Notes: generated from the sequence alone by a model not told the origin. A stretch of 64,000 nucleotides of DNA from Eledone cirrhosa (GCA_964016885.1 OZ024752.1:16368001-16432000), one strand, 5' to 3'; positions 8,606-61,003 are shown, counted from the stretch's first letter. Program-made: numbers and translations.

Positions 8606-8991
8606 AAAGTTGCTTTCTTAAGGCCCGGTCGCTGGTGATGGTGATGGCGGCGGCGGTAGTGGTGCTGGTGGCAGTTGATGTTGTTGTTGTGTTGTGTGCG
8701 TGTGTGTGTGTGTTTTGTTATTTTGAGTTTTTTTGTTTTGTTATTTTCCTTTTTTTTCCCTTCCCTTTCTTTTCTTTTTTTTATCTTTTGATGCCGCTGT
8801 TGTTGTTGTTGTTGTAAATGTTCATTTCAGTTCATTCTGAAGCTGTTGTTGCTGTAAACATTAGTGCCGGTGTTGTTGGTTGTTGTTGTAGATGTTGGGG
8901 TTGAAATCTGGTCGTTTGACTGAGTGATGTATATACACAAAATTGTGATGTATATACACAAAATTGCAAACTCGACTGTCACCACATATCA

Positions 8992-9030
8992 TGAACCTGA
9001 AGATTGCGAAAGCATGAAAGTACTTGTTCA
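8992..9030 (+). ncRNA. Minimal type-I hammerhead ribozyme in a PLE-type terminal repeat (8985-9152)
   Basis: tgaac CTGAAGA t-tgc-gaaa-gca-t GAAA gtac TT gttca; stem I tgaac/gttca; palindromic stem III. Confidence 0.7.
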
Positions 9031-9487
9031 ATTAACACTTAGAATTTAATATTCTATCATACTATTTCATTATAATACCATTATATATATTTTAAAGGAT
9101 TGTAAATAAAACGAGTAAATCAGACAAAGTTGGAATTCCTCTTATTAATATAATCTTCTATACACAATCATACACACCCGTGTATATTTACCTATCTATA
9201 TCTATATATATATATATACACATTCAACAGAGAGTAGAGAGTTTGACAACAGGTCGATGACTTTAGTCTAGATAGGGTAATGACATGTGATGGTGGGGAG
9301 AGAGTGTAGACGTTATTGTGGTGGTGGGGGATAGTGAGATGTATCTAGTTCATTTGACTGTTTTTCTTCTCTTTGCAAAATTTGAATTTTTAGCCATGTT
9401 ATATTGAGATGTAAGTAAATGTAAAATGTAAAATATAAATAAGGATTGCTCTGCTAAAACATACTAAAATATTTGTGTAACTTCCAC

Positions 9488-9560
9488 AAACTTCTGTCGT
9501 GACATTCCCGAGTCCAGTGACCAATGGTCACTGGACTCGGGAATGTCACGACAGAAGTTT
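9488..9560. repeat. Perfect 36-bp-arm palindrome with a 1-nt centre
   Basis: aaacttctgtcgtgacattcccgagtccagtgacca-a-tggtcactggactcgggaatgtcacgacagaagttt. Confidence 0.95.
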
Positions 9561-9647
9561 AATATGTATTTTGATGTTTCAGAATACAAAATTAATAAAA
9601 AACTTATATATATATATATACATACATATATACATACATATATATAT

Positions 9648-10038
9648 ATATGATGACTGCCCACTCGTTATCGAGTATGGCCATTGCACGAGAAGAAAGA
9701 AAAAAAATTAATAAACAAATAAAAAATAAAATAAAAATAGAAAAAAAAAGAAATATATATATATATATATATACACACACATACACACACACACACACAC
9801 ACACACACACACACACATACACACATATACATTAATAACAATAATAATAACAACAATAATAATAACGACAACAACAATAATAATATACATATATATATAT
9901 ATATATACACATACACGCACACACATAAACATATCTATACACACAGACACACACGATAGCAACTAACAGCGCTGCGATCGAATGTGGCTTTTTAGCCCAG
10001 CCAATGATCTAAAATGTCTTGCACAGAGTCGGCAACCA
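9648..10038 (-). mobile_element. 5'-truncated copy of the RTE at 649-3050 (last zinc finger + 3' UTR)
   Basis: Near-identical to 649-1070; flanked by TA tracts. Confidence 0.9.
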
Positions 10039-10498
10039 ATGTATATATATATGTATATATGTATGTATATACATATATATATATACATATATATATATAT
10101 ATATATATATATATATATATATATGTATGTATATACATATATATATATACATATATATATATATATGTATGTATATACATATATATATATACATATATAT
10201 ATATATATGTATGTATATACATATATATAAATACATATATATATATATATATATATATATATATGTATGTATATACATATATATATATATACATATATAT
10301 ATATATATGTATATACATAAATATATATACATATATATATATATATATATATATATATATATGTATGTATATACATATATATATATACATATATATATAT
10401 ATATATGTATGTATATACATATATATATATATATATACATATATATATGTATGTATATACATATATATATATACATATATATATATATATGTATATAC

Positions 10499-59180: not shown

Positions 59181-59586
59181 GAGATGACTCCTTAGCCTTT
59201 GTCAAGGCAGAATTCTAGGAGAAGGAAAACTCTGATATAACACCTGCAACCCTGATGGTATCCAATGATGTTGACTTGTTCTTCTTTTTGGTAAATATCA
59301 TCTTGGTTTAGAGAGTGGGACTGGCTTTGTGCAGTGCCTTTGCTCACTATAAAAGCTTCACGGCACAGGCATTGCTGCTTTATATCTGGAGATCTATCTG
59401 CACTTCTCGTCACATGGTACCATGGGCCCAGCACTATGTGTCAATAATTGTCACAAGTGTAGTGTTTGTACCAGTTTTCAAGTCGCTGGCTGGACTAAAA
59501 AGTCACACTCATTCAGCCCATCGGTAGGGGTTCTCCTACATGGATATAAGGTAGTGGCCGTACTCGAAAACGAGTTGGCAGCCACC
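59181..59586 (+). mobile_element. 5'-truncated RTE-derived family A element within (ATGT)n
   Basis: Reverse complement of 13178-13582. Confidence 0.85.
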
Positions 59587-59643
59587 ATGTATGTATGTAT
59601 GTATGTATGTATGTATGTATGTATGTATGTATGTATGTATGTA

Positions 59644-60262
59644 TGTCGGGTCACTCTTAGGTGCTACTGGTAACATGTAACCCAGTACAATCTGTCGTAT
59701 GGTCGGGTCGTCGGCGAATAAACCGGCAACCCCACCAAGTTTACTTGGTGAGGAGGGTGATTTTGGACACCCTGCAGGACAAAGAACAAAACCTGACAAA
59801 GGGCGGAATAACCCATAAGAGTCAACAACAATCCAAAAGTGTGTAAATATGTATATACACATGTACATATGTATGTATATGTATATGTGTATATCCATGG
59901 GTGCATGTGTATGTATATGCACGGGGATATAGAAATAGTCGGGCTGGACACCCAATCGCGCGGTTAAGCCACTGGGAGTGAAGGACCCCTAGACTTTGTC
60001 AGGGCATTCTTCTAGGAGAAGGCAACTCAGGAAACTGGGATAACTCCGATATAAAACCTGCGGCTCAGTAGTAACCGATGATGATGACATTTTATTCTTT
60101 TCGGGTTATAGCTACTGTCGCTCAGAGAGTGGGATTAGCTCAGTGCACAGTCTTTCCTCACTTTAAAAAATATCTTCTCGCACAGGCATTGCACGATAGA
60201 ATTAATTATTAATAATGGTATATCGTGCAATGGCCATACTCGATAACGAGGGGGAAGCCATC
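59644..60262 (+). mobile_element. RTE-related family B element (head related to family A, tail matching the RTE at 649)
   Basis: Head resembles rc of 13590-13786; 3' end cgtgcaatggccatactcgataacgagggggaagccatc matches rc of 649-688. Confidence 0.8.
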
Positions 60263-60503
60263 ATGTATGTATGTGGGTATGTATCTATGTATGTATGTGT
60301 GTGTGTATATATTTATATGGTTAGTAAAATATGGAAATATTATTATCATATTTGGTGATATATGTCTGTAGTCTTATATATATATACATATATATATATA
60401 CATATATATATATATATATACATATATATACATATATATACATATATATATATATACATATATATATATATACATATATATATATATATATATATATATA
60501 TAT

Positions 60504-60680
60504 AACGAAGGAAATCTGGTAAGGAACCAGGTGGACCATAACGCACCAAAGTACTCAATACTTAGGGTAGTAGAGTGGGTAATAGGAACTAGTAGGACTC
60601 CGACGGCTGAGCTCAAGCCGTTTCGACGGCTAATTCTGGACTCAGTTGAGCTCAGCCGTCGGAGTCCTACTCGTTCCTAT
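60504..60680 (-). mobile_element. Short fold-back element, relative of 23749-23937
   Basis: Hairpin 60582-60680 + homologous tail. Confidence 0.8.
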
Positions 60681-60740
60681 ATATACGTATATATATATAT
60701 ATATATATATATATATATATATATATATATATATATATAT

Positions 60741-61003
60741 TAATAAAAGGAATTCCAACTTTGTTTGATTTACTCGTTTTATTTACAATCCTTTAAAATT
60801 ATAATGATATTATAATGAAATATTATGGTAGAATATTAAATGTTTAATGTTAATTGAACAAGTACTTTCATGCTTTCGCAATCTTCATGCGAAAGCATGA
60901 AAGTACTTGTTCAATTAACATTTAACATTTAATATTCTACCATACTATTTCATTATAATATCATTATAAATTTTAAAGGATTGTAAATAAAACGAGTAAA
61001 TCA
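60741..61003 (-). mobile_element. Fold-back version of the 8985-9152 repeat, turning inside the hammerhead core
   Basis: Arms flank loop atcttca (60881-60887); right arm cut by a family A fragment. Confidence 0.87.

What the first reader, a model, noticed from the sequence alone, without database searches (positions are those of the whole stretch)
8985..61003. A class of hammerhead-bearing asymmetric fold-back retroelements living in (TA)n tracts
Seen: at least 11 elements from about 7 sequence families share one architecture, (TA)n - short arm - turn - long arm - unpaired tail of about 20-95 bp - usually (TA)n. They start at 15301, 23749, 24065, 27410, 39691, 42394, 42975, 45540, 53551, 60504 and 60741. 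Most arms contain an intact or decayed hammerhead pointing outward. Established: Penelope-like elements carry minimal type-I hammerheads in their pseudo-LTRs and can show an inverted 5' pLTR plus a tail; metazoan non-LTR retrozymes are tandem, not inverted. Inference: these are mostly non-coding hairpin products of PLE reverse transcription that annotators would mislabel as MITEs. They may form an undescribed non-autonomous ribozyme retroelement class. I cannot confirm novelty without a search.
Basis: partly seen in the sequence, partly recalled or inferred. Interest (0 to 1): 0.9.

Follow-up and report, generated by a model that had tools for sequence, protein, structure and literature searches.

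The report
Fold-back Penelope ends plus a retrozyme
The hairpins are real, but six of the seven families are cut-short 3' ends of Penelope-like retrotransposons in their known inverted layout; the seventh is a non-coding 323-base ribozyme repeat with the same insertion footprint, so it likely borrows the Penelope enzyme.

Summary
The architecture is real: all 11 fold-backs exist, with arms 94-99% alike. It is not a new class. Walking upstream in the genome, 10 of the 11 elements (families A, B, C, D, E, G) run colinearly into reverse transcriptase + C-terminal GIY-YIG ORFs of Penelope-like elements (PLEs; Hydra-type, Neptune-type, Nematis-like). Inverted 5' copy, one-sided tail and (TA)n target are published PLE features, and opposite-strand hammerhead pairs were noted in 2014. 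Only 6 of 22 arms keep a strict hammerhead core. Three things go beyond the papers I searched. (1) Family F is a tandem 323-nt non-LTR retrozyme with two preferred ends 40 nt apart, one per arm in 10 of 10 scorable fold-backs. This is footprint evidence that PLE enzymes mobilise retrozymes. (2) In 85 fold-backs either arm can be the longer one (22 vs 23), which favours two primed cDNAs joined head to head. (3) Family G has a hard 5' stop 31 nt below a TATA box (28 of 36 copies), so the short forms are likely run-off copies of the transcript's 5' end. Interest 0.45.

The parts
15301..15830 (+). Family A1 (Hydra-type PLE 3' end): inverted arm 15301-15446, direct arm to 15739, 91-nt tail; strict hammerhead cores at 15643 (+) and 15397 (-)
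   Evidence: ORF link (16 of 20 loci picked for length; L183 = inverted arm + partial pLTR + 3.9-kb unit)
23749..23935 (+). Family B1 (Hydra-like PLE 3' end): about 105-nt hairpin, 79-nt tail; only the 3' half of a decayed hammerhead
   Evidence: endonuclease C-terminus about 0.9 kb upstream in 2 of 9 longer loci, 0 of 20 in the first set
24069..24354 (+). Family C (Hydra-type PLE 3' end): 206-nt hairpin, 81-nt tail; substituted core
   Evidence: RT/EN in 7 of 10 longer loci
27411..29090 (+). Family D (C-terminal GIY-YIG PLE, Neptune-like): 1636-nt palindrome, 44-nt tail; arms include the end of the endonuclease ORF; hammerhead core substituted across the family
   Evidence: (12 of 20 loci with EN upstream)
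39692..40018 (-). Family A3 (relative of A2, about 77% identical): 236-nt hairpin, tail on the left
42394..42899 (-). Family E1 (Nematis-like PLE 3' end): 445-nt fold-back, 60-nt tail on the left; substituted core in the long arm
42976..43500 (+). Family F: fold-back of a 323-nt tandem non-LTR retrozyme; strict type I hammerhead at 43289 (+); right arm cut by a later repeat
45541..47344 (+). Family A2 (Hydra-type PLE 3' UTR): 1.7-kb fold-back, 94-nt tail; strict cores at 47144 (+) and 45642 (-)
   Evidence: 7 of 20 loci with RT/EN in an arm; 94% to ORF-bearing L041/L042
53549..53880 (-). Family E2: 275-nt hairpin, tail on the left, turn lies below the hammerhead
60505..60680 (-). Family B2: 93-nt hairpin, tail on the left
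60741..61003 (.). Family G (Neptune-type PLE 3' end): 238-nt hairpin turning inside hammerhead stem II; right arm cut by a later repeat
8960..9200 (+). Unfolded short copy of family G with strict hammerhead (8997) and tail
14310..14416 (+). Unfolded short copy of A1 ending at the inner (tail-less) end, inside (TA)n

Best explanation
These fold-backs are the 3' ends of Penelope-like retrotransposons (six families) and of one tandem retrozyme (family F), likely made when the Penelope enzyme nicks both strands of a (TA)n tract, starts one DNA copy at each of two fixed sites on the RNA, and the two short copies are joined head to head. SHOWN: colinearity with RT-GIY-YIG ORFs; two fixed 3' ends 40-94 nt apart, one per arm; variable turn; either arm longer; (TA)n at the ends; the same two-end rule in F. 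FROM PAPERS: a purified PLE cuts and extends both strands, starts at two sites that bracket the tail, and does not need hammerhead cleavage. INFERRED: two primers rather than one fold-back primer (about 0.55); F moved in trans by a PLE enzyme (about 0.75); the short G copies end at the transcription start because the enzyme starts in the 5' pseudo-LTR and runs off the RNA (about 0.6). The hammerhead is a passenger of the pseudo-LTR, not the cause of the fold.
For: ORF links: A1 16 of 20, A2 7 of 20, B 2 of 29, C 7 of 10 longer loci, D 12 of 20, E 3 of 9, G 4 of 5 long loci. Textbook inverted arm + partial tandem + full unit in L065, L143, L183. Of 85 divergent pairs (86 listed, 1 dropped as two separate elements): tail on one arm 79, on both 4, on neither 2. 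In those 79: TA beside the tail-less end in 75; tail-less arm longer in 22, tailed arm longer in 23, within 25 nt in 34; junction overlap or blunt in 41. 82 of 85 junctions are distinct. Among the first 100 G motifs listed, neighbours within 4.5 kb are divergent 22 times and convergent 0 times. F: divergent in 17 of 21 loci; one inner and one outer end in 10 of 10 loci with both ends scorable (hand-corrected). G: 28 of 36 consecutive unpaired loci stop 188-200 nt above the inner end and none at 201-521; TATAAAA at -31 and -40, CCAAT boxes at -93 and -130; both arms often stop at the same base with filler between.
Against: Unequal arms could also come from later deletions in a perfect palindrome, which I cannot exclude. 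In G the two arms are closer than the family median in 21 of 24 rows, but nearest neighbours (ties included) in only 9, so 'same RNA' is not shown. No PLE partner with sequence likeness to F was found (only about 1.5 Mb of loci searched). F's inner end lies in an AT-rich patch and may be overcalled. The transcription start is inferred from DNA alone. One G lineage is nearly all short (28 short/3 long vs 13/13, p=0.001), which run-off alone does not predict. Loci came from best-hit lists, so length counts are biased except for G. A few rows are mis-chained (e.g. L124, L143). Pfam found nothing for the 4 Hydra-type queries, so clade names rest on motifs.
Confidence: 0.75

Rival explanations
1. 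One cDNA folds back on itself (self-priming), the endonuclease trims the second arm at the inner site, and later central deletions make the arms unequal. Same elements, different step.
For: Proposed in print from palindromes at inverted junctions; tail ascribed to endonuclease resolution. 34 of 79 pairs are symmetric within 25 nt and arms mostly share a lineage.
Against: 22 of 79 have the tail-less arm longer, by up to 3.4 kb. Unfolded copies also end at the inner site. G junctions where both arms reach the same base with 1-11 nt of filler leave no room for a hairpin loop.
Confidence: 0.3
2. Short (about 250-nt) pseudo-LTR copies are themselves transcribed and remobilised in trans, a SINE-like non-autonomous layer. 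The upstream (TA)n target could supply the TATA box.
For: Hard 5' stop; one G lineage 28 short/3 long; several unfolded copies start at the stop directly after (TA)n. Internal promoter and TATATATA box described for other PLEs; non-autonomous Chlamys elements exist.
Against: Every G lineage has some long members, and short and long copies share haplotypes. No RNA data.
Confidence: 0.3
3. One reading: the hairpin itself is the mobile unit, a new class of non-autonomous fold-back ribozyme retroelement.
For: Many short non-coding hairpins; a recurrent junction in G.
Against: 82 of 85 junctions are distinct; continuum to ORF-bearing copies; arms of one element share a lineage while the recurrent G junction occurs in different lineages; core intact in 6 of 22 arms.
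Confidence: 0.05
4. MITEs of a TA-targeting DNA transposon, or assembly/chimeric-read palindromes.
For: Inverted repeats flanked by TA.
Against: Unequal ends, variable centre, RT-GIY-YIG link. Arms differ by 1-6%. Contigs of public runs show turn joints symmetric about the A1 axis at depth 9-675 (one sample, possibly the source of the assembly).
Confidence: 0.01

Closest known systems
Hydra clade of C-terminal EN+ Penelope-like elements (Craig et al. 2021, PMC8557442)
   Same: A1, A2, C: RW(R/K), DK(T/A), CxCx5C linker (A2, C), CxxC/CxH in the endonuclease (A2), hammerhead in the pseudo-LTR, (TA)n target. B: only the endonuclease end was seen.
   Different: Units 3.6-4.7 kb with 1-2 kb 3' UTRs (published: generally under 3 kb); tails 79-94 nt (published 30-40).
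Neptune and Nematis PLE clades
   Same: G: DKG, Cx4CxxC linker, Pfam RVT_1 + GIY-YIG. D: DKG, C-terminal GIY-YIG, cysteine linker. E: C-terminal GIY-YIG with cysteine linker.
   Different: No reference tree was built. The Nematis label for E and the Neptune label for D rest partly on recalled motifs. G has an upstream ORF overlapping the RT frame at a slippery heptamer.
PLE inverted 5' copy with tail (PMC3846280, PMC8557442, PMC2377424); opposite-strand minimal hammerhead pairs in Schistosoma (PMC4209133)
   Same: Head-to-head inversion, tail on one arm, palindromic junctions, pairs 100-700 bp apart.
   Different: Here counted on 85 insertions, with arm-length symmetry and a fixed 5' stop that I did not find reported.
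Metazoan non-LTR retrozymes (PMC7229834; bioRxiv 10.64898/2026.07.22.740005)
   Same: F: 323-nt non-coding tandem monomer, type I hammerhead with short palindromic helix III, no ORF.
   Different: F inserts into (TA)n as head-to-head fold-backs with two fixed ends 40 nt apart; neither paper's text describes this.

Membership tests
EN+ Penelope-like elements | RT plus GIY-YIG ORF colinear with the element 3' end | tested here: met
   Families A1, A2, C, D, E, G; endonuclease end only for B
EN+ Penelope-like elements | Partial tandem (pseudo-LTR), tail running into the ORF start | tested here: met
   L037, L065, L123, L143, L144, L183, L191; not seen for B or E
EN+ Penelope-like elements | 5' truncation, inverted 5' copy, tail on one end | tested here: met
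   79 of 85 pairs
EN+ Penelope-like elements | Type I hammerhead in the pseudo-LTR | tested here: inconclusive
   Strict core in A, G and part of E; substituted in most B, C and D copies; cleavage not testable
Hydra clade | RWK, DKT, CxCx5C, (TA)n insertion | tested here: met
   A2 and C for these motifs, A1 for RWR and DKT (against the section read)
Hydra / Neptune / Nematis clades | Placement in the RT phylogeny | not tested
Non-LTR retrozyme (family F) | 150-450-bp tandem non-coding repeat with a type I hammerhead per unit | tested here: met
   Period 319-324 nt; L101 spans about 3.6 kb of tandem units; no colinear ORF in 20 of 20 loci
Non-LTR retrozyme (family F) | Self-cleavage and circular RNA | not testable with these tools
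   No RNA run available for laying
MITE / DNA transposon | Symmetric fixed terminal inverted repeats, fixed length | tested here: not met
   Ends differ by the tail; span 89-5503 nt; 82 of 85 junctions distinct

The most novel reading that the evidence does not exclude
Family F is a retrozyme that a Penelope enzyme copies from multimeric or circular RNA and inserts by the same two-site, two-strand reaction as its own RNA. Together with thousands of young fold-backs and a fixed transcript-start stop, this genome holds a natural record showing that PLE inversions are two cDNAs joined head to head, and it may host a SINE-like layer of 250-nt pseudo-LTR elements whose TATA box is supplied by the (TA)n target.
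Probability: 0.4. Interest if true: 0.7.

Novelty: new member of a known kind. Interest (0 to 1): 0.45.

Why it matters
The proposed new class dissolves into known PLE biology. Two open questions become testable, though. Which enzyme moves animal retrozymes is so far argued from co-occurrence and phylogeny; F gives an insertion footprint. How PLEs make inverted copies and tails is called undefined in the 2021 paper; arm-length statistics and the fixed 5' stop give a prediction for the in vitro system of PMC11167929. In practice such hairpins attract false MITE and microRNA calls (sub-threshold Rfam microRNA hits on D and E arms).

Tried and rejected
Rfam scan: no hammerhead in the named arms among the rows shown. 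DNA search for G returned nothing, so an exact 31-nt pattern was used. Pfam: 0 families for 4 of 6 queries. Partner for F: no meaningful BLAST likeness to six PLE references (C's reference was empty in that run); an nhmmer profile found only further F copies in 1.48 Mb. No RNA holder listed for F; this is no evidence either way. Contig depth on G rises from 13-23k to 430-830k across the 5' stop, but the tool warns that depth is no copy number, so it is not counted. Turn at the hammerhead cleavage site: considered and rejected, since turns cluster above the core in G and inside stem II in B, and F arms read through the site. Fixed 5' stops in D (326-332) and E (273-275) are suggestive only (4 of 36 and 6 of 34 arms). 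Single-hammerhead folding z-scores are weak (-2.0 to +0.2). A recalled snRNA-type promoter of newt satellite 2 could not be confirmed (0 papers). No earlier scan findings. Repbase and Dfam are not available. No supplements were read, so curated consensus files (PMC8557442, PMC13282606) and the closed preprint supplements may already hold these families.

Full report
Setting. The window lies at G000:C12:16368001-16432000 of a 3.0-Gb genome in 1796 contigs. No call names the organism.

Observation. After masking simple repeats, self-BLAST gives a local inverted repeat at all 11 named sites, the weakest at E=3e-13. Arms are 94-99% alike. They form seven families: A (15301, 39691, 45541), B (23749, 60505), C, D, E (42394, 53549), F and G. 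Unpaired tails are 91, 94, 79, 81, 44, 60 and 53 nt for A1, A2, B, C, D, E, G. At 42976 and 60741 the overhang comes from a later repeat cutting the right arm. A strict hammerhead core survives in 6 of 22 arms.

What the arms belong to. All families are dispersed repeats. First-look candidates were 68 (A1 end), 2713 (A2), 3679 (B), 1577 (C), 2822 (D), 1547 (E) and 1952 (F); these are not copy numbers. G's hammerhead 31-mer occurs 5562 times exactly, against 0 for the reversed control. In fetched loci, sharing falls off toward the 5' side and reaches RT and GIY-YIG coding DNA: A1 16 of 20, A2 7 of 20, C 7 of 10, D 12 of 20, E 3 of 9, G 4 of 5 long loci, B 2 of 29. The A1, C and second B sets were picked with upstream queries and so favour long copies. 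The 45541 element is 94% identical to ORF-bearing L041/L042, and in L037 the tail sequence runs straight into the ORF start. L065, L143 and L183 show inverted arm, partial tandem and full unit. A1, A2 and C carry the Hydra-clade marks listed by Craig et al. (section read whole). G has Pfam RVT_1 and GIY-YIG and a Neptune-type linker. Pfam saw nothing in the four Hydra-type queries. The short hairpins look non-coding because these 3' UTRs are 0.4-2 kb long.

The two-end rule. 86 divergent pairs were listed and one dropped. Of 85, 79 have the tail on one arm, 4 on both and 2 on neither. In the 79, TA repeats abut the tail-less end in 75. The tail-less arm reaches further 5' in 22, the tailed arm in 23, and they match within 25 nt in 34. 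82 of 85 junctions differ. The first 100 G motifs give 22 divergent and 0 convergent neighbours within 4.5 kb. A single cDNA that starts at the tail and folds back cannot make the tail-less arm longer unless the palindrome is later deleted. Two cDNAs, one primed on each nicked strand, can. A purified PLE cuts and extends both strands from two start sites that bracket the tail, and hammerhead mutants still insert (PMC11167929, parts 1-2 of 4 read). In line with that, B, C and D are young (best hits 93-99% alike) and fold like the rest, though most copies have a substituted core. Against: arm pairs in G are closer than the median in 21 of 24 rows but nearest in only 9, and later deletion is not excluded.

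Why so many are short. Of 36 consecutive G loci without a listed partner, 28 stop 188-200 nt above the inner end, 1 at 160, 7 at 522 or more, and none between. Paired arms often both stop at 198 with filler between. TATAAAA starts 31 and 40 nt upstream, with CCAAT boxes at -93 and -130. I infer a transcription start: the enzyme starts in the 5' pseudo-LTR, as in vitro, and runs off the RNA. One lineage is 28 short/3 long against 13/13 (p=0.001), which leaves room for self-propagating short copies.

Family F. F is a 323-nt tandem monomer with a type I hammerhead, no ORF link in 20 of 20 loci, and an array of about 3.6 kb in L101. This meets the sequence definition of a non-LTR retrozyme (PMC7229834, passages). 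17 of 21 loci are head to head. Ends cluster at about 150 and 190 nt after the core, mostly against (TA)n. The script counted 11 mixed, 1 outer-outer, 5 with one end scorable and 2 unscored among 19 divergent loci (17 plus 2 incidental). Three outer calls were artefacts of where my reference ended, and one end was re-read as outer from its flank. After correction 10 loci have both ends scorable, and all 10 have one of each (about 0.001 if independent and equally likely). Arms exceed one monomer and read through the cleavage site, so the template was multimeric or circular (inference). No partner PLE was found.

What is known. Inverted 5' copy, 30-40-bp one-sided tail and (TA)n targeting: PMC8557442 (passages and section 11), PMC3846280 (passages), PMC2377424 (passages), PMC8969392 (passages). 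Opposite-strand hammerhead pairs 100-700 bp apart, 'probably related to truncated PLEs': PMC4209133 (passages). Retrozymes as PLE dependants, argued from distribution and phylogeny: PMC7229834 and bioRxiv 10.64898/2026.07.22.740005 (part 1 of 5, term search and Discussion); the first never uses 'inverted', and the second has no 'tail' and 'inverted' only in a reference. A recent cephalopod repeat annotation has no 'hammerhead' or 'retrozyme' (PMC13282606, passages). Searches listed no paper on inverted retrozyme insertions or a fixed 5' stop; subscription papers, Repbase and supplements were not seen.

Verdict. The value lies in F's footprint and in the mechanistic statistics. Interest 0.45.

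Noticed in passing
L143, L144, L145 (family G ORF junction; G000:C1:63258185-63268184 and nearby): A 476-codon upstream frame overlaps the RT frame at a T TTT TTA heptamer in 3 of 3 copies, suggesting a programmed -1 frameshift; no strong downstream hairpin.
   Followed up: partly
L002:221-1420: A second fold-back with a direct repeat of about 470-nt period and outward-facing strict hammerheads; possibly another inverted retrozyme.
   Followed up: partly
   Followed up: partly
window 10500-12974 (-), 16100-17827 (-), 24400-26908 (-): Three more PLE remnants: endonuclease end with a 2-kb UTR and the hammerhead at 10684; a Hydra-type RT; a Neptune-type RT-GIY-YIG.
   Followed up: partly
window 14887-14923 (-), 23548-23570 (+): Further single hammerhead-like cores of other families.
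   Followed up: no
family F monomer (window 43230-43500): Two octamer-like motifs per monomer; a snRNA-type promoter is a recalled idea, unconfirmed.
   Followed up: partly
family E, about 260 nt above the inner end: Several copies stop at 273-275 nt, about 15 nt above an AAGATGGCG motif recalled as a YY1 site.
   Followed up: no
window 4406-7771 (+) and 995-2526 (-): A LINE with RT and a C-terminal restriction-like nuclease motif in several frames, and an RTE-like LINE fragment with C2H2 fingers; labels from recalled motifs.
   Followed up: no
window 51371-52857, 61815-63652, 9488-9560, 34021-34083: Tandem arrays of 106-nt and about 84-nt units, a 73-nt near-perfect palindrome, and a tRNA-like Rfam hit above gathering.
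   Followed up: no
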